From contig CAWHSF010000003.1 of the NCBI GenBank assembly GCA_963832025.1, forward strand, positions 143,665 through 207,664: a stretch of DNA of 64,000 nt, given 5' to 3'. A program made the position numbers and the translations under genes. The notes below the pieces were generated by a model, which saw only the letters and a list, made by a program, of their open reading frames with translations, was not told the DNA's origin and made no database searches. Shown here piece after piece: positions 4,507-56,556 of the stretch. Source of the stretch: Candidatus Nomurabacteria bacterium (GTDB lineage: Bacteria; Patescibacteriota; Minisyncoccia; Phycocordibacterales; UBA9973). Position 1 is the stretch's first letter; every line of letters starts with the position of its first letter.

Positions 4507-7500
4507 CTACTGCTCTATATACGTAGGTTTCATCTTGAATATAGAACACGAAGCAGTTGAGCCACTTGGCACACTGTCACAAATCCAAGTCCATTGTGAA
4601 GAGGTACTACTCTCACTAGAAGCATCTAATGTTCCTTGAGTACAAGTATTAATGGTTGTAGTAGAGCAAGAAACACTTCCTCCAGAAGGAGCTGCGTCTT
4701 GGCTAGCTGAACATATGCTGTCTGTGCCACTAGTTACGTGTAAACATTCCCAGTTTGCAGTTCCCCCTGGTGCTGGGAAAGAAATAACTGAAGGACTTTG
4801 GGTTCCTGACTCACAGAAAGTGTCAGAACCATAGCCCGGCCAATTGTAAGGGTAAGTTGTATTGTCTGCTGAACCACAAACTCCGTTAATAGAAGTTGCA
4901 GTAACACAAGTGCTACCATTCCAACTTGTGCCCGAAGTACAAGTGGCAGTCGATAAACTTGTCGCCAGTGATACAGCATTGTTATAAAGATAGAATGTCC
5001 TACCAGCATATGGAACAGCTAAGCCGTTTGCTGTGCCTGATTGAAAACTAGGACTGATTGTATTGGTTACATTTACGTTGGTCATTCCTGTCGCCGTAAT
5101 CGCAGTCGGAGTTCCGATTGGGTTAGTTATACTCCAGTTTAAGTTTACCGTACAAGTACTTGCTCCGGATAAAATGATACAGGAGGTGATGGGTGGAGTG
5201 AGGGTGCCGGACATTCCGACATTCCATTCGGAGAAGAAGAGCAAATACTTCCATTCCAACTTGTTCCCGAAGTACAAGTGGCTGTAGCTGAACTTGTAGC
5301 CAGTGATAGTGCATCATTGTAAAGATAGAATGTCCTACCTAGATATGGCACAACTAAACCGTTTGCTGTGCCTGATTGAAAACTAGGACTGATTGTATTG
5401 GTTACATTTACGTTGGTCATTCCTACTGCTGCAATCGCAGTCGGAGTTCCGATTGGGTTAGTTATACTCCAATTTAAGTTTACCGTGCAAGTACTTGCTC
5501 CGGATAGAATGATACAGGAGGAGGTGGGTGGAGTGAGGGTGCCGGTCATTACTAACTGACTAAACGTCGCGGTAACTGCTTTAGCTGCAGTCATGGTAAG
5601 AGAACATGTGCCTGTTCCGGTGCAAGCTCCAGTCCATCCGGTGAAGGTTGAGCCAGTGGTTGGGGTGGCGGTCAAAACTACTGCTGTGTTGTAGTTGTAA
5701 CTTTGAGAACAGTCAGCACCGCAACTGATACCGGCAGGACTACTGGTGACTGTTCCGGTGCCGGTGCCGGCAGGAGTGACAGTGAGAGCTTCTTGATTTG
5801 GAGAGCAGATAGTTCCGTTCCAAGTTGTGTTGGCGGCACAAGTTGCTGTAGCAACGCTGCTGTCGAGTTGAATAGCATCGTTGTAAAGATAGAATGTTCT
5901 ACCAGGATATGGCACAACTAAACCGGTTGCTGTGCCTGATTGAGGACTAGTTAAAGTTGTTGTTACATTTACGTTGGTCATTCCTGTCGCCGTAATCGCA
6001 GTCGGAGTTCCGATTGGGTTAGTTATACTCCAATTTAAGTTTACCGTACAAGTACTTGCTCCGGATAAGATCGTGCAAGAAATAGTCGCTGGAGTGAGCG
6101 TGCCGGTCATTTGAGTGAAGTTTGCAATCACCGTACAGTTGGCGGTAATTGCTCCGGTGGTATAAGTACTTCCAGACAATGTACCTCCACAAGTGCCGGT
6201 AGTTGTACCGATGGAGTAACCGGTACTGGGGGTGAGGGTGAAAGCTTTGTTGGAATCGTAATTAACTACTTGCACGTTACTTGGAGAGATGGTTCCACTA
6301 CCGGTTCCGACAGAGGGGGTGACGTTGTAGGTGTTGATTGTGAAGTTTGCAATCACCGTACAGTTGGCGGTAATTGCTCCCGTGGTGTAAGTACTTCCAG
6401 ATAGTGTACCTGCAGGACAAGTACCGGTAGTTGTACCGATGGAGTAACCGGTGCTTGCGGTGAGGGTGAAAGCTTTGGTGGAACCGTAATTAACTACTTG
6501 TGCGTTATTTGGAGAAATTGTTCCTCCGGTTCCGGCAGAAGGAGTGACGTTGTAGGTGTTGATTGTGAAGTTTGCAATCACCGTACAGTTGGCGGTAATT
6601 GCTCCCGTGGTGTAAGTACTTCCAGATAGTGTACCTGCAGGACAAGTACCGGTAGTTGTACCGATGGAGTAACCGGTGCTTGCGGTGAGGGTGAAAGCTT
6701 TGGTGGAACCGTAATTAACTACTTGTGCGTTATTTGGAGAAATTGTTCCCTCCGGTTCCGGCAGAAGGGGTGACGGTGTAGGTGTTGATTGTGAAGTTTG
6801 CAATCACCGTACAGTTGGCGGTAATTGCTCCCGTGGTGTAAGTACTTCCAGATAGTGTACCTGCAGGACAAGTACCGGTAGTTGTACCGATGGAGTAACC
6901 GGTACTTGCGGTGAGGGTGAAAGCTTTGGTGGAACCGTAATTAACTACTTGTGCGTTATTTGGAGAAATTGTTCCTCCGGTTCCGGCAGAGGGGGTGACG
7001 TTGTAGGTGTTGATTGTGAAGTTTGCAATCACCGTACAGTTGGCGGTAATTGCTCCCGTGGTGTAAGTACTTCCAGATAGTGTACCTGCAGGACAAGTAC
7101 CGGTAGTTGTACCGATGGAGTAACCGGTACTTGGGGTGAGGGTGAAAGCTTTGGTGGAACCGTAATTAACTACTTGTGCGTTATTTGGAGAAATTGTTCC
7201 TCCGGTTCCGGCAGAAGGAGTGACGGTGTAGGTGTTTAGCGTAAACGTCGCGGTAACTGCTTTAGCTGCAGTCATGGTAAGAGAACATGTGCCTGTTCCG
7301 GTGCAAGCTCCAGTCCATCCGGTGAAGGTTGAGCCAGTGGTTGGGGTGGCGGTCAAAACTACTGCTGTGTTGTAGTTGTAACTTTGAGAACAGTCAGCAC
7401 CGCAACTGATACCGGCAGGACTACTGGTGACTGTTCCGGTGCCGGTGCCGGCAGGAGTGACAGTGAGAGCTTCTTGATTTGGAGAGCAGATAGTTCCGTT

Positions 7501-8985
7501 CCAAGTTGTGTTGGCGGCGCAGGTACAATTAACAGTTAGGCCAGAACCGTTGGGAGAAGTCGGAACAAGCGATTTGGCATTATTGTAAAGATAGAAAGTT
7601 TTACCAGCATATGGGACAGTCGTTGGCACACTAGTTCCAGAATCTCCCAAAAAGACGTTTACACCAGAACTAGTTATAGCAGAACCATTTGGAACTTCTG
7701 GATTTGTAACATTCCAAGTTAAATTTACAGTACCACTACCAGAATTAGCTGGAACAGTACAAGCCGTAGCACTCATCGTACCCGACATAGTACCAACAAT
7801 AATAGTAAATGGTATTTGTGGGCCAAAAGCAGTGCTTCCATTAAACATCTGCCATATTTCTGTGTATGTCTTAGCGGCAGATGGAGCAGTTAAAGAACTT
7901 AAGGAAAAAGTTGTTGTTGCGTTAGAAGCAACATCGGCGCTACCACTAGTAGATTCTGTATATACTGCACTACAGTTGGTATTGCTGTTCCACGTTCCAC
8001 CACATCCAGCCTGACAGACATTGGAACTTGTCCCGCAACCTACGCTTCCATTAACAGTACATGAATTTGCGAGACCATTCCAGCTTCCGCCACACATTCC
8101 ACAATTACTAGCGTTAGCACTACAGTTAAAAGAACCACTAGAAGAACACGAACCCAAACACGATTGAGAGTTATATTTACACGTCTGAGTGGTTGTCTGA
8201 CTATATGGTATGGGATTCGGACTAGAACTAAAGCCTCCAGTAATATCTTTCAGTTTGATTGTGCTTGAATAATTTGTGATCGTGGCTGTACATGTGTCTC
8301 CTAAAGTTGTAGGACAAGAATAGAGACCATCAGTTGCTCCACAGTCTGATGATTTAGAAATCGATTTTTGGTCTGACACCCAATTAGGAGTTGCGCCAGT
8401 GCTGGTATTTTTGATAGTAAATATGTAAGGCCCACTTACTTGGCTTGTGTTCATCTGAGTCGGCATACTCGGAGAAAGTGGAGATACAAAAGAATCATTT
8501 AAGGTAGTTGATGGAGAGCCAAAAGATGCAGTACCGTCTGAAAGATAAGTAACAGAACCCCAAGGCGCATAACCTGGATATGGATTAGAATTTAAAGTAA
8601 AAGAATATGTTCCCTGCTCAGGATGATCACTTGTGCCACAATTATTATAACTTGAATTATAAGCCGTTTGTGTAATGGTAATATTACTAGAAGGAATACT
8701 TCCAGATACTCCATCAATTGTATATGAAAGATAACCACCCGACTCGAAGATGTCTAGTGGAGGACTTAATCCGAGTGTATTATCACATGTGACAGTTTGA
8801 ACGTTATAGCCACTTGAGAAAGTTCCAGAAATGGTAATACTGCTACTAGTAGAACTGGCACCCACGGTGACATTGGAAGTACAGCCACTGCCAGTGCATG
8901 ATGCTTTTGTCGTGGAAACATTAAAGAGAGCAAATAGAGCAATAACTGCTATAAGCAAACCAGAAACAAAAATTTTCTTTTTCAT
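4507..8985 (-). CDS. giant repeat-rich secreted surface protein (adhesin-like, InlB-B-repeat-like modules); reading frame interrupted twice
   Basis: Signal peptide MKKKIFVSGLLIAVIALFALF. Three tracked ORFs (6730..9021, 5145..6803, 4507..5277) join at protein-repeat level. They are broken by an extra C at 6748-6750 and an 8-bp tandem duplication at 5210-5225. The first and third ORFs share a frame (9021-5277=3744). Confidence 0.75.
5210..5225. repeat. perfect 8-bp tandem duplication (gacattcc x2) causing a frameshift in the surface protein gene
   Basis: Read directly. Deleting one unit restores ...CSSSPNGMSGTLTPPITSC..., which matches the other module junctions. Confidence 0.85.
5561..5837. 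repeat. 277-bp direct repeat, copy 1 (partner at 7242-7518)
   Basis: taaacgtcgcggtaactgctttagctgcagtcatgg...ccaagttgtgttggcggc appears identical by eye in both places. Confidence 0.85.
6115..7240. repeat. tandem array, 5 x 225 bp (75-aa module FTINTYxVTPSAGTGGTISPNNAQVVNYGSTKAFTL...CTVIAN)
   Basis: The marker gtgaagtttgcaatcaccg recurs at 6115, 6340, 6565, 6791 and 7016. The single 226-bp period contains the extra C. Confidence 0.9.
7242..7518. repeat. 277-bp direct repeat, copy 2
   Basis: See the partner at 5561-5837. Encodes the same ...EALTVTPAGTGTGTVTSSPAGISCGADC... module. Confidence 0.85.
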
Positions 8986-12481: not shown

Positions 12482-12500
12482 ATAAAAATTGTCGAAGGTG

Positions 12501-12616
12501 TAGTTTTTATGAAACTTTGTGCAGGTCATTCGACTCTGAGAGTCTCAGACTCGATGAGCGGGTAGCCGAGCAAAGCAAAAATTCAGCAGAATTTTATGCG
12601 TGTTGAATAAAAACTA
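12501..12616. repeat. family-B palindromic element, 116 bp (inverted twin at 54417-54532)
   Basis: The reverse complement matches 54417-54532 at 114/116 positions. Core gcgggtagccgagca, outer arms tagtttttatgaaac / gttgaataaaaacta. Confidence 0.9.
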
Positions 12617-12646
12617 TACCGAGAAAGATTTTTATTTAAACAACAT

Positions 12647-13741
12647 ATGCAAATAAAAATAACAAAATTACCAAAAAGTGAAATAGAAATTGAAGGAGAG
12701 CTGGAAGCAGATATTTTTGAGACTTATTTTTCCAAAGCGGTAAAAAGAATCGGAGAAACAATAAAAATTGATGGCTTTCGCCCTGGAAAAATTCCAGAAA
12801 GCGTTTTGCTTTCCAAAGTCCCAGAATCTCAAATCTTAGAAGAGATGGCAGAGCTCGCTTTGAATGAACACTATCCTAAAATTATTGATGAAAATAAAAT
12901 TGACGCAATCAGTCGTCCGGAAATTTCTATCCTAAAACTAGCTAGAAAAAACCCGCTCGGTTTTAAAATCAAAACCGCAGTAATACCGGAGATGAAACTT
13001 CCTGACTACAAAAAAATTGCCAAGGAAATAATTTCTAAAATTACCGACGAAGAAAAAAATGTCGCAGTCACGGATGAAGATTTAGAAAATACTATAATGG
13101 ATATACGAAAATCTCGCGCTCCAAAAATACATATGGCAGAAGTGGCAGTCCAGACGTCCGACGTTAAAGATGCCCCAACGTCGGACGTCGAGAATACCGA
13201 AATCAAAACAGAAACCAAAGAAGAACTTCCCGAATTCAATGATGAATTTGTGCAGGCGCTCGGACCTTTTAAAGATGTTAAGGACTTTAAAGAAAAATTA
13301 AAGGAAAATCTTAAACTGGAAAAAGAAAATGCTCAAAAAGAAAAAACCAGAATAAAAATAATTGAAAAAATAATTGAGGAGAGCGCAATAGAGACGCCTG
13401 AAATTTTAATTGAAGTTGAGCTAGATAAAATTTTATATCGAATGGAATCAGATATTACCCAGATGGGTCTCAAGTTTGAAGATTATTTAAAACATCTTAA
13501 TAAAACAATTGATGATTTGAGAAAAGAATTTCGCGGAGATGCTGAGAAAAAAGCGAAACTTGCCCTTGTGTTAAATGAAATAGCAAAAGAGGAAAAAATT
13601 ACTGCCGATCCCGAACAAGTTGCACGCGAAGTCGCTGCCATTTTGGAACATTACAAGGAAGCGGACCCGGAACGCGCAGCAATGCACGCCGAGAACGTGC
13701 TCACCAACGAAAAAATCTTTCAGTTTTTGGAAAATCAATAA
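12647..13741 (+). CDS. tig: trigger factor
   Basis: N-terminal GFRPGKIP motif and overall TF architecture. PPIase region short or divergent. Confidence 0.8.
   Translation: MQIKITKLPKSEIEIEGELEADIFETYFSKAVKRIGETIKIDGFRPGKIPESVLLSKVPESQILEEMAELALNEHYPKIIDENKIDAISRPEISILKLARKNPLGFKIKTAVIPEMKLPDYKKIAKEIISKITDEEKNVAVTDEDLENTIMDIRKSRAPKIHMAEVAVQTSDVKDAPTSDVENTEIKTETKEELPEFNDEFVQALGPFKDVKDFKEKLKENLKLEKENAQKEKTRIKIIEKIIEESAIETPEILIEVELDKILYRMESDITQMGLKFEDYLKHLNKTIDDLRKEFRGDAEKKAKLALVLNEIAKEEKITADPEQVAREVAAILEHYKEADPERAAMHAENVLTNEKIFQFLENQ
13153..13189. repeat. family-A-like hairpin inside tig coding sequence
   Basis: Perfect 13-bp arms gacgtccgacgtt / aacgtcggacgtc, 11-nt loop. Translated as TSDVKDAPTSDV. 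Confidence 0.8.
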
Positions 13742-14662: not shown

Positions 14663-17600
14663 AAATATTCTTTGTAAGACTTAATTTCTAAATTTTCAAC
14701 CGGGTAATGCGCTAGGGCTTTAATAAAAGCGCGGGCTAGATGTAAATCGGTAAATAAAGGAATCTGGCTATCAACGGTGGCTCGACGGATATGGAAGCCG
14801 TCACTCTCCACATGCCCTCCTTTTTCTTTTCCATTTTCTATTGTATTTCCTGTCTTGCTCAAAGAAACAACAAAGGAAACTTTTTTGCTTTCTATTATAT
14901 TAATCGCATTCGGAAGTTGTTGATATGCTTTGCGAACTGTTTCACACTTTATATTATACTTCTTTAAAAACAGAGCAGTGGTGTCTGTCGCAAAAATATT
15001 ATAGCCCATGGAAATTAAAATATTGGCTGCTTCCAGAAATTTAGCTTTATTTAATTCTCCGCCCAGTGAAAGTAAGACATTTTTATTTTTAAAATCAAAT
15101 TTATTGGTACTCAAAATTGATTTTAATAAAGCTTCATCGTAATCTCTCCCAAAACAAGCCGCCTCGCCGGTTGAAGACATTTCCACTCGCAATATTGGGT
15201 CGGCGCCAAGCAATCTGGAAAAGGAAAATTGTGGACTTTTTACAATCACGCTTTTCGGATAGATAAATTGATGGGGCTTGGCTTTCCCAAAAAAACTATC
15301 AACGGCAAATTCCGCAAAGTTCGTATCCATGGCTTTTGATAAAAGCGGGAAAGTACGACTGGCTCGCACATTTACTTCAATCACAAAAGGACGATTGTCC
15401 TTTACTAAAAATTGAATATTAAATGGTCCGGTTATGGAAAGTTCCTGCGCAATTTTTTTGGCAATTTCTCTCAATTGAAACTCGGTGGAAGCATATACTC
15501 TCTGTGATGGATAGACAATTGTCGCATCTCCGGAGTGTACTCCGGCATTTTCAACATGTTCTGAAATACCATAAATCATCAATGCGCCGTTTTGCGCGAC
15601 CGCATCAAATTCAAGTTCCTTGGCACTTTCTATATATTTAGAAATAGTTACGGGATGAAGCGGAGAAAGCACGGCAGCTTTGTTTATAAAATTATATAAT
15701 TGTTCCTTGTTGTAACACACTCGCATGGCCGAACCGGAAAGAACATAAGAGGGCCTAACCAAAACCGGGAAACCTTCGCGCTCAGTAAATTTTTCGGCTT
15801 CTTGACGCGAGGTAAAACTCTGCCATTTTGGTTGCAAGATGTTCAGTTTGTCCAGTAAAGCAGAAAACAAATTGCGGTCTTCTGCCCTGTCAATATCTAC
15901 CGCCTTGGTTCCTAAAATATTAAAACCGGCTTCTGCAATTTGCTTGGCTAAATTATTTGGCCTTTGTCCGCCGACAGAAATAATTAGTCCATCCGCTTTC
16001 TCAAATTCAAAAATATCTGCGACCGTTTCAAAAGATAAGTTTTCGAAATACAATCTATCTGACATATCATAATCAGTCGAAACAGTTTCCGGATTGCAAT
16101 TTATGATGATGGATGCTTTTTTGTGTCTACGAAGTGCAAGCCCGGCATGTACACATGACCAATCAAATTCTACGGAAGAACCAATATGATATGGCCCACT
16201 ACCCAACACAACAATTGCATTCTTTCCTATTGGAGAGACATCATTGTGCATGCCGTGATATGTCAGATATAAATAATTGGTTTTAGCTGGCACCTCTCCC
16301 GCCAAAGTATCAATCGCAAAAATAAATGGTTTAACTCCCAAACTGATACGTAATTTACGAATTTCCAATTCTTTTTTACCACACAAAGTTCCAATTTTTT
16401 TATCCGAAAAACCATTCTGTTTTAAAAGGAGGATACTTTCTTTATTAAAAGAATGTAAACGATTTTTGATAAAATTTTTCTCTATATTTACGATATTTTC
16501 TATTCTATATAAAAACCACAAATCGATGCCTGTTATTTTATGAATTTCTTTCACTGTCATGCCTTTTTTTATACTTTCGGCCACTGCAAATATTCTCCTA
16601 GGGGTTGGCGTTTTCAGAAAGAAATTTAGTTCCTGCTTATTTTTAAAACCATTGTCAGTGACACTTTCGGTGTTGCCGGATTGCATGCGAATTGCTTTCC
16701 CTAGTGCCTCTTCAAAACTTCGCCCGATTCCCATCACTTCCCCGACGGATTTCATAGCACTACCTATCTTTTCCACTGCGCCGACAAATTTTACTAAATC
16801 CCATCGAGGTATTTTTACCACCACGTAGTCCAGCGCCGGTTCAAAAAAACTTTGGGTAACTTTTGTGATTTTGTTCTCTATCTCAAGCAGAGTTTTCCCC
16901 AAAGCAAGTTTTGCGGCAACATAAGCCAGCGGATATCCGGTAGCTTTGGATGCCAAAGCGCTTGAGCGAGAAAGACGCGCATTTACTTCAATCACAAAAT
17001 AATCTACTCCACCCTTCGCCCTCCCCTTATTAAGGGGAGGGTTGGGAGGGGTCGGATTTAAGGCAAATTGTACGTTGCACTCACCGACTATTTTTAAACT
17101 TTGCACAATTTTAATGCTTGCTTCTCGCAATCTATGATATTCTTCGTTGTTTAATGTTTGGCTCGGAGCAACAACAATCGAATCTCCGGTATGAATGCCA
17201 AGTGGGTCTAAGTTTTCCATATTACAAACCGTCACAGTGTTGCCAGAAGTATCACGCACCACCTCGTATTCAATTTCTTTAAAATGGTGCAAGTACTTTT
17301 CAATTAAAACCTGCGGGGAAACAGACAATGCTCCTTTGACGATTTCCTCCAGTTCTTTTTCGTCATGGGCAACTCCGGACTTTTGCCCACCCAAAGCAAA
17401 AGCCGCCCGCACCATCAGAGGAAAACCGATTTTTTTCGCAACAACTTGCGCTTCTTTTAAATTCACAGCGCTACCGGAAGGTGGCACCGGAACATCAATA
17501 CTTCTTAGGTGTCTCGCAAACTCTTCTCGGTCTTCGGTTAAAATGATGGAAGAAATGGGACTGCCTAAAACTTCTATCCCGTATTTTTTAAAAACACCTT

Positions 17601-29810: not shown

Positions 29811-29856
29811 TCCAGACGTTGGACGTCTGTGTTCTTACAGACGTCCAACGTCTGGA
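29811..29856. repeat. family-A nested palindrome
   Basis: Arms tccagacgttggacgtctg / cagacgtccaacgtctgga (19 bp, 8-nt loop). Each arm is itself palindromic (cagacgt tgg acgtctg). Confidence 0.9.
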
Positions 29857-32542: not shown

Positions 32543-32604
32543 CCTCCAGACGTCCAACGTCTGGAGGAGATGTTGGACACCTGCTTTGCAGATGTCCAAC
32601 ATCT
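32543..32604. repeat. two adjacent family-A hairpins upstream of metK
   Basis: cctccagacgt cca acgtctggagg (32543-32567). agatgttggaca ... tgtccaacatct (32568-32604); the latter is an inverted relative of 43673-43709. Confidence 0.9.
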
Positions 32605-32622
32605 AGTGTTATACTCAAAACT

Positions 32623-37416: not shown

Positions 37417-37450
37417 ATATATATTGTAGCAGATTTTTAAACTTGTTGCA

Positions 37451-37543
37451 GGCGTGCTTTTTAGAAAGCCTTGCGTAGGCGGACGCGCCGAGCAGTTCGC
37501 TGGCGTAGCAACGCCAGATAGATTGCTTTATAAAAAGCACGCC
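37451..37543. repeat. family-B palindromic element (diverged copy)
   Basis: Outer arms ggcgtgctttttagaaagc / gctttataaaaagcacgcc, core ccttgcgtaggcgg..gccgagcagttcgc, inner hairpin ctggcgt agca acgccag. Confidence 0.85.
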
Positions 37544-37568
37544 AAGAAAGAGTTTATAAATCTTCCTC

Positions 37569-43672: not shown

Positions 43673-43709
43673 AGACGTTGGACATCTGCAAAGCAGGTGT
43701 CCAACGTCT
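43673..43709. repeat. family-A hairpin just after the Cys-rich gene stop
   Basis: agacgttggaca tctgcaaagcagg tgtccaacgtct. The loop is the reverse complement of the 32580-32592 loop. Confidence 0.9.
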
Positions 43710-43713
43710 CAAA

Positions 43714-45360
43714 TTAGTTTACTCCGTGTTTTTGGTGAAGTTTGGCAACTTCTTCTTCCTCAAGCTCTTCTTTTTTTTCTTTCCCTCGCTCGCCGAGAGT
43801 TTTTAGCTCATCGTCTCCGAGCATATTTAGAGATTTTACCAAGTGCTGAAAGATGTTCTACGGTATTTTTCTCTGGCGCATCCAAAACTTCTTCAAGTAA
43901 AGCGTGTAAAATCCATCCCATGCGTGGTCCAGGCGTAATTCCGAGTTCTTTTATCATAAATTCTCCATTTATTTTCAATTGTCCGACAGAAATTGGGTCG
44001 CGAAGTGCTTCTTCGATCATTGCAAAATATTTTCGCAATCGATAGGTGCTTCTTTTTTCTTCATCCCCACCCTGTCACACTCACGGACATTCATCAGAGC
44101 CCAAATATTTTCTTTTCCGACTTTGGCAATAATTCTTCGCACAGCGGAAAGCGTAATCAGTTCTGTATCGGAAAAAAACATATGATTATGAACAAGTTTT
44201 TCCACCAACTCAATTTCTTTTTTGGGAAATTTTAATCTCTCCATTATTTTTTTTGTCATCCGCGCACCGATAACTTCATGACCGTAAAAAGTATATTGCT
44301 TTTTTGGCTGTCGAGATGTAGGAGAATTCTGCTGGCGGAAGGTTCCGGCCGAAGGCTGGAGAAAAGCCGAAGAATTTTTCTGCATCTCGACAGCCTCACG
44401 TCTACTTCTTGGCTTTCCAATATCATGAAAAAGTGCTGCGAGCCTTATTTCCAAAGGCCAATTTTTGTCTGCTGCATGTTGCACCGCGTGTAATAAATGA
44501 TTCCAAACATCATAAATATGTTCCCCCGATTGTTCGCAATTTATTCCCTCTTCCAATTCCGGAATTATATTTTTTAGCAAACCAAATTTTTGCAACATCA
44601 AAATTCCACTCGCAGGATTTTTTGATAAAATTATTTTTTCAAATTCATCACGAATTCTTTCTTCCGATATTTTTTTTATTAATTCAGAATTTTTTAAAAT
44701 ACTTTCCATTGTTTCATACGACACAGAAAAATCTAGTTGGCAAGCAAAGCGCACAGCTCGCAACATACGTAGTGCATCTTCTTTAAATCTATCATCTGGA
44801 TTTCCTACCGCTCTAATGGTTTTGTTTTCAATGTCCTTTATCCCGTTATATAAATCTACAATATGTCTTTTATCTTGTCCTTTATACTTGCCTGCCAAAG
44901 CTTTAGCGTCGGCAGGTCCAAAGCCATCGCATTAACTGTGAAATCACGTCTTTTAAGATCATCTTCAAGCTTATCACTGAAAATTACTTCATCTGGATGC
45001 CTAAAATCAGTATATTTTGTTTCAATTCTATAAGGAGTGACTTCAATGATCATATATTCTGATGTTTCACGAGAAACATCTTCAATTTGTGTTACATGTG
45101 GAACATCAGTCTGTTTAGGCAGGCACAACTCCAACAGTTCCAAAGTTATTTTCATATATAGTTTTTTCAAATAAATCAATAATTTGTTCTGGCTTAGCAT
45201 CAGTGGTAACATCCCAATCCTTTGGCTCTCTACCATTAACAAGATCACGAACACATCCACCGACTAGGTACGCCTCAAAACCAGCTTCTTCTAATCTATC
45301 TGTTACTTGTGAAACTTCTTTGGGGATTTTCGATATTAAATTTTTTACGTCTTTTTCCAC
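43714..45360 (-). pseudogene. cca: CCA-adding tRNA nucleotidyltransferase with HD domain; frame broken about 4 times (error versus pseudogene unresolved)
   Basis: Segments [20 protein letters not shown]..., [11 protein letters not shown], ...RFKEDALRMLRAVRFACQL, LAALFHDIGKP and the C-terminal tail lie in different frames. Breaks are near 45120, 44930, the T6 run at 44052-44057 and the T4 run at 43834-43837. The GTG start at 45360 is tentative. Confidence 0.75.
44306..44395. repeat. family-B-like element, exactly 90 nt, in frame inside cca
   Basis: Perfect 13-bp terminal inverted repeats ggctgtcgagatg / catctcgacagcc. Interior has gaattctgctg and gccgaag. Encodes AVEMQKNSSAFLQPSAGTFRQQNSPTSRQP. 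Confidence 0.8.
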
Positions 45361-52267: not shown

Positions 52268-54391
52268 GTGACAGATGAGACAAAACATTTGGAAGGATTA
52301 AACCCTGAGCAAAAAGAGGCGGCGCTTCATATGAAGGGTCCGCTTCTTATTGTGGCTGGAGCGGGAGCGGGCAAGACTAAAACTATTACGCACAGAATTG
52401 TGAATCTGATAAAGAATGGCGTTCCTCCAGAAAAAATATTGGCGGTGACATTTACCAACAAGGCTGCGAAGGAAATGCGAGAGAGAGTCATTGCAGAAAT
52501 TAATAAAAACTTCGTCGGCAATGCCTTTTCTCAGGTCCTCGGTTCTCCGGGTCCCTATCCCGGCCAGACCATTCCAAAAGGCCTTGCCGACTTCGTAAAT
52601 AAGGCACCTTTTGTCAGCACCTTTCATTCTTTGGGAGTTTTTATTATAAAAGAAAACGCCAGATTGCTTGGGCTGACTAGGTATTTCACGATTTTGGATG
52701 AGGGAGATTCGACAGGAATGATAAAAGAAATAATGAAAAGCTTGGGGATAGACCCAAAACAATACGATCCGAAAAAAATAAAAAATATTATTTCGCGCGA
52801 GAAAGGAAAATTTGTTTATTTAACGGAATACACGGAAAGAGAAAATAGCAGTCTGGGAAGAATTGTAGCCCAAATCTGGAATTTATATGAGAAACAAAAA
52901 ATGAAGGAAAATTCTTTGGATTTTGACGATTTACTTTTAAAAGCGACAAAATTGTTAAAAGACAACAAGGAAATTAGGGAACTTTATCAAGATAAATGGG
53001 AATATATTCATATAGACGAATATCAAGACACCAATGAAGTGCAATATTTGATGACCAAATTGCTTTCCGAAAAATACAAAAATATTTGCGTGGTCGGGGA
53101 TGCAGACCAGAATATTTATTCTTGGCGCGGAGCAAATTTAAAAAATATTTTGAGTTTTGAGAAAGATTATCCGAATGCAAAAATAATTTTATTGGAGCAA
53201 AATTATCGCTCGACCAAAAATATTCTGGAAGCGGCAAATGAAATCATTAAAAAAAATAAATATAGACCGGATAAAAATTTATTTACAAAAAATGTTGTCG
53301 GAGAAAAAATCGGCTTGTATGAAGCATTGGATGAAACCGACGAAGCGGATTTTGTAGCGACAAAAATTTTAGAACTAATGGACAAGGGAAAAGATTTGTT
53401 TTTGCGGGGTCTCTCGCAGGCCGACGGGCCGAGAGGGAACGCTGTGCGAGCACGCACAGACAGTGACCTCGCAAAAACAGAATCTTTTTCTTTGTCCGAA
53501 ATCGCCCTGTTATATCGCGCAAATTTTCAATCGCGCGCGCTGGAAGAAGCCATGCTTCGCTACAACATTCCATACCAAGTTTTGGGTGTTAAGTTTTTTG
53601 AAAGAAAAGAAATCAAAGACACTTTGGCATATCTGCGCGCAGCGCTGAATCCGGAAAGTTTGTCCGACATAAAAAGAATAATAAATTTCCCGGCGCAGAG
53701 GCATCGGCAAGGTTACATTATTGAAAATATTTGCCGGAGAACGGGAAACTTTACCGATAAAAGTAAGAATTAAAGTTGATAATTTTTATACAACATTGGA
53801 AGAAATAAAAGAAAAAATATTAAAAGTGAAAAAACGAGCGAGGTAATAAAATTTGTAGTGAAAAAATCCGGCATTGAACAAGAATTGAGTAGCGGGGGAG
53901 ATGAAGATATTGAAAGATTGGAAAACATAAAAGAGCTTGCGACCTTGGCATTAAAATATGATAATTTAGAAAATGGAGCCGGTGTAGAAAAACTTTTAGA
54001 AGATGCATCATTGGCATCGGACCAAGATTCACTGATGATAAATCAAGAGAAGAAAGAAAGAAAAGAAGTAAATGCAGTGAAATTAATGACCGTGCATGCG
54101 TCAAAAGGCCTTGAATTCAAATACGTTTTTGTCACTGGTTTGGAAGATGGACTTTTCCCGCACGAAAGACAAAATGAAGGACAGAGTGGTGAAGACAGAG
54201 AAGAAGAACGCAGACTTTTTTACGTGGCGCTGACCAGAGCTAAAGAAAAATTATTTTTATCTTTAGCAAATTTCCGTACAATTTTCGGCTCACGCAACAT
54301 AAACGCACCATCAGAATTTATTAGCGACATACCGGCAGATTTATTAGAAAAAGAAGGAGAGGGGCACGGCATAAAAACAATTTATTTATGA
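52268..54391 (+). CDS. pcrA: UvrD/PcrA-family superfamily-1 DNA helicase; a 140-nt internal segment lies in a shifted frame
   Basis: AGAGAGKTKTITHR, TFTNKAAKEM, HIDEYQDTN, VGDADQNIYSWRGA, YRSTKNIL, LLYRANFQSR and VKLMTVHASKGLEF motifs. The motif RGIGKVTLLKIF is readable only in the +1 frame between about 53696 and 53834. Confidence 0.88.
53391..53487. repeat. family-B-like element in frame inside pcrA
   Basis: Arms agatttgtttttgcg / cgcaaaaacagaatct. Interior tcgcaggccgacgggccgagag resembles the core gcgcaggcgggtagccgagca. Encodes DLFLRGLSQADGPRGNAVRARTDSDLAKTESF. Confidence 0.7.
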
Positions 54392-54416
54392 TGGAGAACA
54401 AAATTCTTTCTTGGTA

Positions 54417-54532
54417 TAGTTTTTATTCAACACACATAAAATTCTGCTGAATTTTTGCTTTGCTCGGCTACCCGCTCATCGAGTCTGAGACTCTCAGAGT
54501 CGAATGACCTGCGCAAAGTTTCATAAAAACTA
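54417..54532. repeat. family-B palindromic element, 116 bp (inverted twin of 12501-12616)
   Basis: 114/116 identical to the reverse complement of 12501-12616. Confidence 0.9.
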
Positions 54533-54563
54533 CACCTGCAACGAATTTTGTTTAACAAAGAAG

Positions 54564-55508
54564 ATGCAACATAAAGCAAAAAAAACATTGGGGCAAAACT
54601 TTTTAAAATCGGAGCTAGCTCTGCGAAAGATTATTGAAGTCGGTGAAATAAAACCTGATGATATTATTTTAGAAATTGGTCCAGGAAAAGGTGCGCTGAC
54701 AAAAAAAATTTTAGAAAAAGCTGGAACGGTAATCGCTGTTGAAAAAGACCGTGAGTTGATAGAATTTTTGAAAACAAAATTTGCAAAAGAAATCACGACA
54801 AAAAAAATAATTTTGGTTGAAGATGATATTTTAAAATTTAATCTGGAGCAAGATATTCTCGAGCGAACCCTTGGTAGGAGCGACGGCGACGGACAGAGAA
54901 AATTTTCAGCAGAAAATTTTCGTGGTGAGTCCGAGAATATTTTGCTCCCGATTTCCTATAAAATTATTGCAAACATTCCATACAATATTACCGGCGCAAT
55001 CTTGAAAAGATTTTTGACAGAAAAAAACCAGCCGGAGCGCATGGTCTTGATGGTCCAAAACGAAGTGGCAAAAAGAATCGTGGCTTCCGACAAAAAAGAA
55101 AGTGTTCTTTCCATCTCCGTGAAAGCTTACGGTGAACCAAAAATGGTGATGAAGGTGCCAGCTCGATATTTTTCTCCAGAACCCAAGGTGGACTCCGCCA
55201 TAATTATTATAAAAAATATTTCTCGCAGACTTTTTGAAAAAAATAATACCTCACCCCAACCCTCTCCTTGCCAAGGAGAGGGGGGCAACGGGACTGTCCA
55301 AAATAAAATTTTGGACAGTCAGGCATTTGAAGAAAAATTTTGGGAAATAGTAAAAACCGGGTTTGCTCATAAGAGAAAAAAACTATCTGGCAACTTAAAA
55401 TCTCTCAAAAATTACGAAGTTTTAACAAAAAATGACTTTATGCAAACTTTGGGGAATAAAAGAGCGGAAGATTTGACGCTGGAGGATTGGATTTCGTTGA
55501 CTAAATAG
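54564..55508 (+). CDS. rsmA: 16S rRNA (adenine1518/1519-N6)-dimethyltransferase
   Basis: LGQNFL, EIGPGKGALT and ANIPYNIT motifs. Start trimmed to the ATG at 54564. Confidence 0.9.
   Translation: MQHKAKKTLGQNFLKSELALRKIIEVGEIKPDDIILEIGPGKGALTKKILEKAGTVIAVEKDRELIEFLKTKFAKEITTKKIILVEDDILKFNLEQDILERTLGRSDGDGQRKFSAENFRGESENILLPISYKIIANIPYNITGAILKRFLTEKNQPERMVLMVQNEVAKRIVASDKKESVLSISVKAYGEPKMVMKVPARYFSPEPKVDSAIIIIKNISRRLFEKNNTSPQPSPCQGEGGNGTVQNKILDSQAFEEKFWEIVKTGFAHKRKKLSGNLKSLKNYEVLTKNDFMQTLGNKRAEDLTLEDWISLTK
54853..54940. repeat. family-B-like element in frame inside rsmA/ksgA
   Basis: Terminal inverted repeats atattctcg / cgagaatat. Interior aaaattttcagcagaaaattttc matches the cagcagaa(a)tt signature of the intergenic copies. 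Encodes ILERTLGRSDGDGQRKFSAENFRGESENI. Confidence 0.7.
55248..55320. repeat. compound insertion in rsmA/ksgA: family-C palindrome plus a 13-bp-stem hairpin
   Basis: ccctctccttg c caaggagaggg (55260-55282) and gactgtccaaaat aaa attttggacagtc (55292-55320). Encodes TSPQPSPCQGEGGNGTVQNKILDSQ. Confidence 0.8.
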
Positions 55509-55510
55509 CT

Positions 55511-55556
55511 TCCAGACGTTGGACGTCTGTATCCGTCCAGACGTCCAACGTCTGGA
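55511..55556. repeat. family-A nested palindrome just after the ksgA stop
   Basis: Arms are identical to 29811-29856 (tccagacgttggacgtctg / cagacgtccaacgtctgga); the loop differs. Confidence 0.9.
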
Positions 55557-55638
55557 GATGCTCATAAACCTTGTTGGACTTGTTTTTTATTGATATAATC
55601 AAGCTATAAATAAATTATTTTGGTCAAAACACAAGAGG

Positions 55639-56556
55639 GTGGTTTGGGTTGCTGCTGCAATCGTGTGTATCGTCGTAATTTTTTTTATAAAAAACAAAAA
55701 TCTGTTTGAAGGGACTATAAAATATCTAGGAGGCACTCAAAAAACCGGACTGACTTATAATCCCAATGATACAGTGGCAGATTTGATAAACAAAAGCACG
55801 ACAGGGGACGGCATCCCGGATTGGGAAAAGATTTTATTAGGACTTGACCCCACCAAAACAGAAAATGTTCCAGGTGTTCCAGACAGTGTCACAATCCAAA
55901 AGATGATGCAGGCCAACACAGCAAGTGGGCAAACAGCAACAGACAACTCTAACTTATCTCAAACTGATCAAGTGTCCAGGGAATTCTTTGCCACCGTCAC
56001 CAGCCTAGAAGAAAGTGGCGCGATAGATGCAAATGGAAATATGGATCAGGACACGCAAGATCAACTTACCAATTCTCTGATAAACAATATTCAAAATTCT
56101 CCACAAAGAAAAATATACCAACTTTCTGATATCAACATAATAAATGACAACAGCATCGCAGCCATAAAAGATTATAATACGACCTTAAATATTATTTTCC
56201 CAAAAACAACTCTTAATTATAGTGTTGTGGATGTATTACAAAAATTTGCTCCTGACGATACTGGCAATAATACCGACCCATCTGTGTTGCCAGAACTTAC
56301 ACCAATTATCAGACAAATGAATGCTTCTTTATTTGGACTGCTAGCAATACCCGTGCCACAATCTTTAGCCACACTACATTTGGATGCCATAAACTCGACC
56401 GAGAGCGTAATTGAAAATTTAAATGATATACAACTTTACACTACTGATTCTATTGTTGCTTTTAGTGGAATGAGTAAATACGGACAAAATTCCACTGCCA
56501 TGTCGACCGCTTTTCAGAACCTTGCTAGTGCAATCGATCAGAAATTGAGTAATTAA
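55639..56556 (+). CDS. hypothetical N-terminally anchored membrane protein, first gene of the T4SS-like cluster
   Basis: TM VWVAAAIVCIVVIFFI, DGIPDWEKILLGLDP motif. GTG start. Confidence 0.55.
   Translation: MVWVAAAIVCIVVIFFIKNKNLFEGTIKYLGGTQKTGLTYNPNDTVADLINKSTTGDGIPDWEKILLGLDPTKTENVPGVPDSVTIQKMMQANTASGQTATDNSNLSQTDQVSREFFATVTSLEESGAIDANGNMDQDTQDQLTNSLINNIQNSPQRKIYQLSDINIINDNSIAAIKDYNTTLNIIFPKTTLNYSVVDVLQKFAPDDTGNNTDPSVLPELTPIIRQMNASLFGLLAIPVPQSLATLHLDAINSTESVIENLNDIQLYTTDSIVAFSGMSKYGQNSTAMSTAFQNLASAIDQKLSN

What the first reader, a model, noticed from the sequence alone, without database searches (positions are those of the whole stretch)
55248..55320. ksgA carries a compound 73-nt insertion made of two different hairpins
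Two palindromes lie side by side: ccctctccttg-c-caaggagaggg (family C) and gactgtccaaaat-aaa-attttggacagtc (13-bp stem with the gtccaa/ttggac motif of family A).

Together they encode TSPQPSPCQGEGGNGTVQNKILDSQ, between the methyltransferase fold and the C-terminal RNA-binding domain.

The same gene holds a second insertion about 88 nt long at 54853-54940. One small essential gene therefore hosts elements of all three families.
Basis: seen in the sequence. Interest (0 to 1): 0.6.

Follow-up and report, generated by a model that had tools for sequence, protein, structure and literature searches.

The report
Repeat elements inserted in-frame in ksgA
The rRNA methyltransferase gene ksgA of this ultra-small (Patescibacteria) bacterium carries, inside its reading frame, a copy of a short triplex-forming DNA repeat found across many bacterial phyla plus a second hairpin. 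Together they add a floppy 25-residue loop, and relatives show the same spot is invaded again and again.

Summary
At 55248-55320 two perfect hairpins lie side by side inside ksgA/rsmA (54564-55508, +) and read in frame as T229-Q253.

- **Hairpin 1.** With its 12-nt 5' flank, it is a copy of the G/C-rich intrastrand "triplex motif" (TM; E. coli TMECO/BoxC/PIT, Holder 2015). Its 20-mer core occurs unchanged in Cyanobacteria, Bacteroidota, Proteobacteria, Nitrospirota and many Patescibacteria.
- **Hairpin 2.** It was seen only next to the TM in ksgA orthologs. It keeps its pairing through compensatory changes.
- **Orthologs.** They are 59-79% identical, with synonymous sites saturated. At this linker they carry nothing, TM alone, TM plus hairpin 2, TM in another frame, TM reversed, or other elements.
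- **Second insert.** The core of the insert at 54853-54940 belongs to a ~105-nt inverted-repeat element (E1). E1 is found reverse-complemented at the same site in one ortholog. An 89-nt stretch is 100% identical inside uvrD of another genome.
- **Structure.** AlphaFold gives pLDDT <50 for exactly the two inserts.

Best reading: selfish structured repeats that survive in permissive surface loops, like Rickettsia palindromic elements but in Patescibacteria and with a triplex motif. How they move is unknown. No target-site duplication was found.

The parts
54564..55508 (+). ksgA/rsmA coding sequence (314 aa), host of the inserts
   Evidence: Pfam RrnaAD E = 2.6e-53. PDB KsgA hits by sequence and by fold, TM-score 0.73-0.84 on the target. 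Orthologs start at MQHKAKK.
55248..55256 (+). Triplex-motif block 1 (ACCTCACCC), the third-strand segment. On the minus strand it reads GGGTGAGGT.
   Evidence: It matches the purine arm base for base under purine-motif rules: 9 triads read from the sequence. The bases 5' of the search pattern are C in 127/127 and A in 104/127 independent copies.
55260..55282 (+). Triplex-motif hairpin: CCCTCTCCTT (55260-55269), loop GCC, AAGGAGAGGG (55273-55282)
   Evidence: Invariant stem in 6 orthologous copies. The 20-mer core is found in more than 120 loci of many phyla.
55283..55291 (+). Spacer GGGCAACGG between the two hairpins
   Evidence: Variable among orthologs.
55292..55320 (+). Hairpin 2: arms GACTGTCCAAAAT (55292-55304) and ATTTTGGACAGTC (55308-55320), loop AAA
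   Evidence: 4 of 13 pairs show compensatory double changes in 6 orthologs. A further variant occurs in L252.
54845..54949 (+). E1: a ~105-nt inverted-repeat element (site-1 insert) with a 17-bp terminal stem GGAGCAAGATATTCTCG / CGAGAATATTTTGCTCC. Conserved core 54856-54944.
   Evidence: RNA MFE -48.1 kcal/mol, z = -6.1. Copies occur in ksgA, uvrD (two sites) and cca of other genomes. One copy is 100% identical over 89 nt and one is reverse-complemented at the same ksgA site.
54397..54552 (.). 156-nt MITE-like inverted-repeat element filling the uvrD-ksgA gap
   Evidence: Inverted repeat I3. A 97% identical copy lies at 12496-12633. uvrD and ksgA overlap by 4 nt in L002 and L003.
55511..55556 (.). 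Intergenic 'family A' hairpin TCCAGACGTTGGACGTCTG / CAGACGTCCAACGTCTGGA just after the ksgA stop. It is not related to hairpin 2.
17007..17053 (-). Second triplex-motif variant, in frame in carB: CCCCTCCC-aa-CCCTCCCCTT-aat-AAGGGGAGGG
53384..53492 (+). E2: repeat element in frame in uvrD (RGLSQADGPRGNAVRARTDSDL). The same element sits at ksgA site 1 of P0039 and P0120.
52516..52600 (+). E3: repeat element in frame in uvrD (AFSQVLGSPGPYPGQTI). The same DNA, read in another frame, gives FSGPRFSGSLSRPDHSKN at ksgA site 1 of P0037.
   Evidence: 100% identity over 54 nt.

Best explanation
The 73-nt segment is two small structured DNA repeats that landed in frame in the linker between the two domains of KsgA.

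**What the parts are.**
- The first part (55248-55282) is a copy of the G/C-rich intrastrand triplex motif (TM), with its C-rich strand as the sense strand.
- The second part (55292-55320) is an AT-rich hairpin, so far seen only beside the TM in ksgA of this clade.

**Shown.**
- The elements are DNA-level units. They occur in other genes, other reading frames and both orientations.
- The linker site and a second loop site are occupied by different elements in different lineages and are empty in many.
- The TM sequence is far better conserved than neutral sites.
- The encoded peptides are predicted to be disordered.

**Inferred.**
- The inserts are translated through as a Pro/Ser/Gly-rich surface loop that does not disturb the enzyme.
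- They are selfish or neutral passengers. They persist only where the protein tolerates extra residues, which is why the same sites recur.
- The C-rich sense orientation and the TSPQPSP frame are favoured because they encode benign residues without stop codons.
- Filled alleles may also spread between lineages by homologous recombination.

**Unknown.** The enzyme or process that copies the elements. The absence of target-site duplications argues against a classical cut-and-paste DDE transposase. It fits a single-strand or hairpin-based route, or a replication or repair template-switch route.
For: **Sequence and folding.**

**TM identity.**
- The minus strand reads CCCTCTCCTT-GGC-AAGGAGAGGG-TTG-GGGTGAGGT. 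The published pattern is CCCTCNCCC-N3-6-GGGNGAGGG-N3-GGGNGAGGG.
- The flank extends the motif in 127 copies.
- Three sequence variants each keep a hairpin plus a matching third block: window ksgA, window carB and P0059 ksgA.

**In-frame copies in real genes.** IF-2, DHFR, PNPase, pseudouridine synthase, M48 and M16 peptidases, FemAB and the CCA-adding enzyme.

**State of the ksgA linker site in 120 orthologs** (my regex classification of the linker peptides):
- 41 empty
- 8 with TM only
- 17 with TM plus hairpin 2
- TM in frame 2 (P0004)
- TM reversed (P0078, P0109)
- other elements

This rests, with DNA.

**Conservation.** TM identity is 0.86-0.97, against 0.34-0.51 at four-fold-type third positions.

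**Hairpin 2.** 4 of 13 pairs have compensatory changes.

**E1.** It is reverse-complemented in P0050, and an 89-nt stretch is 100% identical in L005 uvrD.

**Structure.** AlphaFold2 gives pLDDT <50 only at residues 1-12, 97-127 and 229-249. The core matches KsgA structures.

**Not an artefact.** Independent assemblies carry the composite.
Against: - No mobilising enzyme was identified. No target-site duplication was found around 78 TM copies (mean longest shared flank word 3.8 against 3.5 in controls), so mobility is inferred from distribution only.
- Hairpin 2 was not found outside ksgA. The metagenome scan gave 120 capped hits, and all but one were chance matches. It may therefore be a locally evolved structure rather than a repeat.
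- The strong conservation of the TM and the compensated hairpin 2 stem could reflect a function of the structure rather than selfish spread.
- The KsgA tree is too weakly resolved to count gains and losses. Site-1-empty co-occurs with TM plus hairpin 2, which points to some vertical inheritance.
- Translation of the insert has not been observed.
Confidence: 0.78

Rival explanations
1. The hairpins are kept because the nucleic-acid structure itself does something at this position. One option is slowing ribosomes at the domain boundary to help co-translational folding. Another is acting on mRNA stability, transcription or replication through a hairpin or triplex.
For: - The RNA structures are very stable.
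- The TM is far more conserved than synonymous sites.
- Hairpin 2 keeps its pairing through double changes in several lineages.
- The insert sits exactly between the two domains.
Against: - 41 of the 106 orthologs that could be scored have an empty site, and others carry unrelated elements or the TM in the opposite orientation.
- The same TM occurs in unrelated genes at positions that are not domain boundaries, and in intergenic DNA.
- The published work found no promoter or terminator activity and no triplex in vivo.
- Paired changes in DNA palindromes can arise without selection, by hairpin-templated correction (general knowledge).
Confidence: 0.13
2. The 25-residue peptide is a selected, lineage-specific extension of KsgA, for example a contact with the unusual Patescibacteria small subunit. 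On this view the palindromic DNA is incidental.
For: The peptide TSPQPSP[YC][KQ]GEGGNGTVQ.K.L[ND]SQ recurs in about 17 orthologs.
Against: - It is absent in the closest relatives, P0003, P0007 and P0115, which are 78-79% identical.
- The same DNA is read in another frame (P0004) or reversed (P0078, P0109) at the same site.
- The same DNA encodes loops in unrelated enzymes.
- It is predicted to be disordered.
- The DNA palindromes are conserved beyond what the peptide requires.
Confidence: 0.05
3. The insert is an assembly or sequencing artefact of this contig.
For: The neighbouring uvrD has a 46-codon out-of-frame stretch that may reflect indel errors.
Against: - The same composite sits at the same codon position in independent assemblies: Logan SRR22388211, JGI 3300037810 and 3300050014, NCBI GCA_943348755.1 and ENA ERZ27299977.
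- The ksgA frame is intact.
Confidence: 0.01
4. The insert is not translated. It is bypassed by the ribosome or removed from the mRNA, like the GC-rich 'byp' elements of yeast mitochondria or the gap in T4 gene 60.
For: Stable hairpins lie inside a coding sequence. Nothing here measures translation.
Against: Every retrieved carrier keeps the frame and has no stop codon through the insert. This set is biased towards intact ORFs. No take-off and landing codon pair is evident in the sequence.
Confidence: 0.03

Closest known systems
G/C-rich intrastrand triplex motif (TM/TMECO; earlier BoxC and PIT motifs of E. coli), Holder et al. 2015, NAR (PMC4666352)
   Same: - It has the same three-block architecture: C-rich arm, loop, G-rich arm, short loop, second G-rich block.
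- The blocks are almost the same sequence (CCCTCTCC / GGAGAGGG / GGGTGAGG).
- The loops are variable.
- It is a dispersed repeat with no associated transposon, and the locus varies among relatives.
   Different: - The E. coli copies are always intergenic. Here the motif is in frame inside housekeeping genes.
- One triad differs coordinately in all three blocks (T-A*T instead of C-G*G), so the strict published pattern is not matched.
- The published TMECO census covered 262 proteobacterial genomes. Here the motif is found in Patescibacteria.
Rickettsia palindromic elements (RPE), Ogata et al. 2000 and 2002, as summarised in PMC10969869
   Same: - Palindromic repeats are inserted in frame in unrelated housekeeping genes of a reduced-genome bacterium.
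- They encode extra peptide segments thought compatible with fold and function.
- Several families coexist.
   Different: - RPEs are about 100-150 bp and restricted to Rickettsia. No sequence relationship was tested or is expected.
- Here the elements range from 35 to 105 nt.
- One of them is a cross-phylum motif.
- The same sites are re-used by different families in different orientations.
MITEs with in-frame insertions (for example Coxiella QMITE, ERIC), PMC10969869 and PMC5896051
   Same: E1 and the 156-nt element have terminal inverted repeats and multiple copies. E1 makes in-frame fusions.
   Different: The TM has no terminal inverted repeats and no target-site duplication. No parent insertion sequence was identified.
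REP/REPIN elements mobilised by RAYT transposases (PMC3733652)
   Same: They are short G/C-rich hairpin repeats, sometimes in inverted pairs, with no target-site duplication.
   Different: There is no GTAG or CGTC head tetranucleotide. The elements lie inside genes. No RAYT gene was looked for or found.

Membership tests
Intrastrand triplex motif (TM/TMECO) | Three consecutive blocks (pyrimidine arm, purine arm, second purine block) able to form purine-motif triads along the stem | tested here: met
   The minus strand reads CCCTCTCCTT-GGC-AAGGAGAGGG-TTG-GGGTGAGGT. It allows 9 triads (G*G-C, A*A-T, T*A-T), read from the sequence. The carB and P0059 variants also obey the rule.
Intrastrand triplex motif (TM/TMECO) | Strict published pattern CCCTCNCCC N3-6 GGGNGAGGG N3 GGGNGAGGG | tested here: not met
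   The window has CCCTCTCCT / AGGAGAGGG / GGGTGAGGT. The end position is changed in all three blocks. It is therefore a variant, not a TMECO in the strict sense.
Intrastrand triplex motif (TM/TMECO) | Dispersed, multi-copy, conserved across genomes | tested here: met
There are 127 unique copies. The 64-kb window holds only one canonical and one variant copy.
Intrastrand triplex motif (TM/TMECO) | Intergenic location | tested here: not met
   It lies in frame in ksgA and carB here, and in IF-2, DHFR, PNPase and other genes of other Patescibacteria.
Intrastrand triplex motif (TM/TMECO) | Forms a triplex as single-stranded DNA in vitro | not testable with these tools
   This needs CD or NMR on the oligonucleotide.
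RPE-like in-frame palindromic selfish elements | Repeat family inserted in frame in unrelated protein-coding genes | tested here: met
RPE-like in-frame palindromic selfish elements | Insert lies at a surface or loop position compatible with the fold | tested here: met
   AlphaFold2 gives pLDDT <50 only at the N-terminus and the two inserts, with a confident core. The core matches KsgA structures. This is a prediction only.
RPE-like in-frame palindromic selfish elements | Sequence homology to RPE-1 to RPE-8 | not tested
   No RPE sequences were compared.
MITE | Terminal inverted repeats | tested here: inconclusive
   E1 has a 14-17-bp terminal inverted repeat. The TM plus hairpin 2 composite has none.
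MITE | Target-site duplication | tested here: not met
   No excess of direct repeats flanks 78 TM copies. This was not examined for E1.
REP/REPIN-RAYT | GTAG or CGTC head, extragenic location, cognate RAYT gene | tested here: not met
   The element starts ACCTCACC or GGGACTG and is intragenic. A RAYT gene was not searched for.
   Only a hexamer is shared, and in the opposite arm. Orthologous copies read GTTCAA, ATTCAA or GCTCAA. blastn of hairpin 2 hits only itself in the window.

The most novel reading that the evidence does not exclude
Patescibacteria of this clade may host an active system, not based on classical transposases, that copies very small structured elements (35-105 nt) into coding sequences. 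Those elements include the cross-phylum triplex motif. On this reading, the capacity to form a three-stranded fold is the feature the copying process needs. That would explain the three-way covariation of the blocks and the near-invariant sequence across phyla. It would make these genomes a natural system for finding what propagates triplex motifs, a question left open since BoxC/PIT/TMECO were described.
Probability: 0.3. Interest if true: 0.8.

Novelty: new variant of a known kind. Interest (0 to 1): 0.6.

Why it matters
Triplex motifs (BoxC/PIT/TMECO) are abundant and strikingly conserved. They have no known function and no known means of spreading, and they were described as strictly intergenic. 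Here the same motif sits in frame inside housekeeping genes of reduced-genome bacteria.

- Empty, filled, reversed and re-framed alleles occur at one site across many lineages.
- A co-resident element is 100% identical between genomes whose synonymous sites are saturated.

This gives a comparative handle on how these elements move and what the proteins tolerate.

It also has a practical side. Length variation and low-complexity "Pro/Ser/Gly" loops in Patescibacteria proteins can be repeat insertions rather than lineage-specific protein features. That affects alignments, phylogenies and structure prediction for this group.

Tried and rejected
- **Rfam.** A scan of the whole window at gathering score found only four tRNAs. 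A scan of 54350-55650 at E up to 10 gave only chance-level hits.
- **Metagenome scan for hairpin 2.** The pattern GGGACTRTYCAAAAYAAA was too degenerate. It returned 120 capped hits, and all but one (a ksgA copy) were chance non-hairpin matches. The dispersal of hairpin 2 stays unresolved.
- **KsgA tree.**
  - I built a neighbour-joining tree of 102 orthologs with the inserts masked, to count gains and losses.
  - Insert states were as scattered as in shuffles (15 changes against a mean of 15.8).
  - The tree of a 227-column protein is too weak to interpret.
- **Target-site duplications.** Around TM copies there was no signal.
- **GC-island scan.** As a census of inserts in the window it was too noisy, because conserved protein motifs are also G/C-rich.
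- **Literature.** Searches for in-frame repeats in Patescibacteria or the Candidate Phyla Radiation found nothing relevant. This is not proof of absence.
- **Ideas considered and dropped.**
  - DNA-uptake signal sequence: the copy number is far too low.
  - LexA-type operator in hairpin 2: the spacing is wrong.
  - Intein: the insert is far too short.
Full report
**1. The observation**

The window is AT-rich (about 38% G+C).

- **The host gene.**
  - The ORF at 54564-55508 (+) is ksgA/rsmA.
  - Pfam RrnaAD gives E = 2.6e-53.
  - There are sequence matches to solved KsgA/Dim1/Erm structures.
  - The closest database relatives are annotated Candidatus Nomurabacteria, Paceibacteria or Minisyncoccia, all Patescibacteria.
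- **The two palindromes.**
  - CCCTCTCCTTG-C-CAAGGAGAGGG is at 55260-55282. It is unique in the window and absent from 100 shuffles.
  - GACTGTCCAAAAT-AAA-ATTTTGGACAGTC is at 55292-55320.
- **Folding.**
  - The segment folds into two perfect hairpins.
  - As RNA the MFE is -40.5 kcal/mol, z = -5.5.
  - As minus-strand DNA it is -24.5 kcal/mol, z = -6.8.
- **The peptide.** It reads in frame as T229-Q253, TSPQPSPCQGEGGNGTVQNKILDSQ.
- **Position in the protein.** Against B. subtilis KsgA, query residues 215-256 face only 14 residues (207-221). This is the linker between the methyltransferase domain and the C-terminal domain.

**2. It is an insertion, and the site is a hotspot**

I aligned 36 orthologs, and then 120 orthologs of 59-79% identity.

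- **States found between NISR..F and EEKFWE** (counts from a regex classification of the peptides):
  - 41 sequences have nothing extra, including the closest relatives P0003, P0007 and P0115.
  - 17 have the same composite peptide.
  - 8 have only the first half (TSPQPSPYKGEG).
  - One has the same DNA read in another frame (P0004, SPHPNPLLVKERE).
  - Some have it reversed (P0078 PLLDKERAGVRF, P0109 PSPSQGEGLGVRS).
  - Others carry different elements, such as NSPLEEYPLGGGG...ATPQEGN and ESHASMDGARHDSAES.
- **DNA of twelve orthologs confirms this at the nucleotide level** (sequences).
- **Left junctions differ.**
  - Among carriers the left junction reads F|TSPQ, FEKNN|TSPQ or FTES|TSPQ.
  - So there was more than one event, or there was later remodelling.
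- **Size of the gain.** The net gain in the window against empty sites is 25 codons.
- **Not an assembly artefact.** The composite is present in independent assemblies from other samples.

**3. What hairpin 1 is**

- **A cross-phylum motif.**
  - The 12 nt upstream of the hairpin (ACCTCACCCCAA) are as conserved among orthologs as the hairpin itself.
  - The hits come from Nostoc and other Cyanobacteria, Bacteroidota, Methylobacterium, Serratia, Nitrospirota, Verrucomicrobiota and many Patescibacteria lineages.
- **A published motif.**
  - A sequence-string literature search led to Holder et al. 2015 (PMC4666352).
  - It is the G/C-rich intrastrand triplex motif (TM), called TMECO in E. coli and earlier BoxC or PIT.
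  - Its pattern is CCCTCNCCC-N3-6-GGGNGAGGG-N3-GGGNGAGGG.
- **The window copy.**
  - The window's minus strand reads CCCTCTCCTT-GGC-AAGGAGAGGG-TTG-GGGTGAGGT.
  - Nine purine-motif triads are possible.
  - Relative to the E. coli form, the last position is changed in all three blocks (C to T, G to A, G to T). That replaces a C-G*G triad by T-A*T.
- **Support from independent copies.**
  - In 127 unique copies, the two bases just outside my search pattern are C (127/127) and A (104/127).
  - Three sequence variants each keep a matching third block. They are CCCTCTCC in window ksgA, CCCTCCCC in window carB at 17007-17053, and CCTCCCCC in P0059 ksgA.
- **What the paper reports.**
  - The oligonucleotide forms a triplex in vitro.
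  - No triplex was detected in vivo.
  - There was no promoter or terminator activity.
  - The E. coli copies are strictly intergenic, and no transposon is associated.
  - Variability of the loci is raised.

**4. In Patescibacteria the motif is often inside genes**

- **Host genes.**
  - In low-G+C Patescibacteria loci the TM frequently lies inside long ORFs.
  - I confirmed several as real genes: IF-2, DHFR, PNPase, an RluA-type pseudouridine synthase, M48 and M16 peptidases and FemAB.
  - The CCA-adding enzyme also carries one, on the same contig as P0037 ksgA.
- **Orientation and frame.**
  - Almost all these copies have the C-rich strand as sense.
  - The commonest frame is TSPQPSP..GEG.
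  - Five of the six frames of the motif are free of stop codons, as read from the sequence.
- **Census of the window.** The window holds exactly two homopurine/homopyrimidine hairpins of 8 bp or more, in ksgA and carB. Both are in frame and in the same orientation relative to the gene.

**5. Hairpin 2**

- **Distribution.**
  - Among all DNA fetched (1.8 Mb), hairpin 2 occurs only in ksgA, next to a TM.
  - My metagenome scan for it was too degenerate to be informative.
- **Pairing is maintained.**
  - In six orthologs, 4 of 13 stem pairs show changes on both sides and 87% of cells are paired.
  - The TM stem is invariant.
  - P0059 adds further paired changes.
- **The family A assignment fails.**
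  - The shared hexamer is replaced by GTTCAA, ATTCAA or GCTCAA in orthologs.
  - It also sits in the opposite arm.

**6. The second insert and the neighbourhood**

- **E1.**
  - The insert at 54853-54940 is the core of E1, a ~105-nt element with a 17-bp terminal stem (54845-54949).
  - Its RNA MFE is -48.1 kcal/mol, z = -6.1.
  - P0050 carries E1 reverse-complemented at the same site.
  - An 89-nt stretch is 100% identical inside uvrD of L005.
  - Other copies lie at a second uvrD site and in cca.
- **E2 and E3.**
  - Elements E2 (53384-53492) and E3 (52516-52600) sit in frame in the window's uvrD.
  - They reappear at ksgA site 1 of other genomes, E3 in a different reading frame.
- **The intergenic element.**
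  - A 156-nt inverted-repeat element (54397-54552) fills the uvrD-ksgA gap.
  - In relatives this gap is a 4-nt overlap.

**7. Neutrality and constraint**

- **Conservation.**
  - Between carriers, four-fold-type third positions are 34-51% identical, which is saturated.
  - The 37-nt TM is 86-97% identical.
  - So the TM is either recently copied, homogenised, or constrained as a sequence.
- **Structure.**
  - AlphaFold2 with 36 orthologs gives a mean pLDDT of 74.8.
  - pLDDT is below 50 only at residues 1-12, 97-127 (E1) and 229-249 (the TM plus hairpin 2 insert).
  - The core matches KsgA structures.
- **No duplication.** No target-site duplication flanks 78 TM copies.

**8. Interpretation**

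- **Best reading.**
  - The best-supported reading is selfish or neutral structured repeats inserted in frame and filtered by what the protein tolerates.
  - This is the Rickettsia palindromic element (RPE) situation.
  - It differs in being in Patescibacteria, in having smaller elements, and in one element being the cross-phylum triplex motif.
- **Open points.** The copying mechanism is unknown. A functional role for the structures cannot be excluded (rival, about 0.13).

**9. Limits**

- Only 64 kb of the genome was available.
- Taxon names come from database annotations of relatives.
- Collection scans were capped.
- The KsgA tree is weak.
- Translation and triplex formation were not measured.

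Noticed in passing
window 53697-53835 (uvrD/pcrA-like gene 52268-54391): A 46-codon stretch is out of frame. There is an extra C near 53696, and an A run of 6 where 7 is needed at 53829-53834. This gives in-frame stops at 53771, 53777 and 53780. The shifted frame matches orthologs (RGIGKVTLLKIFAGERETLPIKV...). It is either indel errors in the assembly or a pseudogene.
   Followed up: partly
window 54397-54552; 12496-12633 (-); 37431-37563: A 156-nt MITE-like inverted-repeat family. One copy separates uvrD from ksgA, which overlap by 4 nt in relatives. The copy at 12496-12633 is 97% identical. An upstream ATG at 54504 that extends the ksgA ORF lies inside this element.
   Followed up: partly
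window 17007-17053 (-), inside carB: A second triplex-motif variant (CCCCTCCC-aa-CCCTCCCCTT-aat-AAGGGGAGGG) lies in frame and encodes PTPPNPPLNKGRAKGG. It has the same orientation relative to the gene as the ksgA copy.
   Followed up: partly
window 53384-53492 and 52516-52600 (uvrD): Two further repeat elements (E2, E3) lie in frame in uvrD. Orthologous uvrD genes carry different elements at the same two positions, so uvrD also has insertion hotspots. The E3 DNA is read in a different frame at ksgA site 1 of L005.
   Followed up: partly
window 54856-54944 versus L005 7991-8079: The 89-nt core of E1 is 100% identical between this ksgA and the uvrD of a genome whose KsgA is about 77% identical over the aligned core (70% over the full length) and whose synonymous sites are saturated. 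This suggests recent transfer or very strong sequence constraint.
   Followed up: partly
loci L013-L101 (Nostoc), L022-L126 (Methylobacterium): In Nostoc the triplex motif sits inside a longer element bounded by GGGAGCATCTCA...TGAGATGCTCCC. In Methylobacterium it follows a second hairpin, GGGTGAGGTGTGTGAC...GTCACACACCTCACCC. So the motif travels as a module of different host-specific repeats.
   Followed up: no
window 29811-29856, 55511-55556, 32545-32608, 43673-43709, 13144-13198: A family of GACGTTGGACGTC-type double palindromes. The copy at 55511-55556 is intergenic, just after the ksgA stop. It is followed by a second GTCCAAC...GTTGGAC hairpin and a T run, which looks terminator-like, although the simple terminator scan did not call it.
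   Followed up: no
window 4900-7620: Long direct repeats, including five copies of a 225-nt period at 6076-7276, lie inside large minus-strand ORFs rich in Thr, Gly and Ser. This is probably a repetitive surface protein.
   Followed up: no
window 44306-44395: A 25-nt inverted repeat (88% complementary, 40 nt apart) lies inside an ORF and encodes a G/C-rich peptide (SSAFLQPSAGTFRQQNSPTSRQP). It may be another in-frame element. No second copy was found in the DNA held.
   Followed up: no
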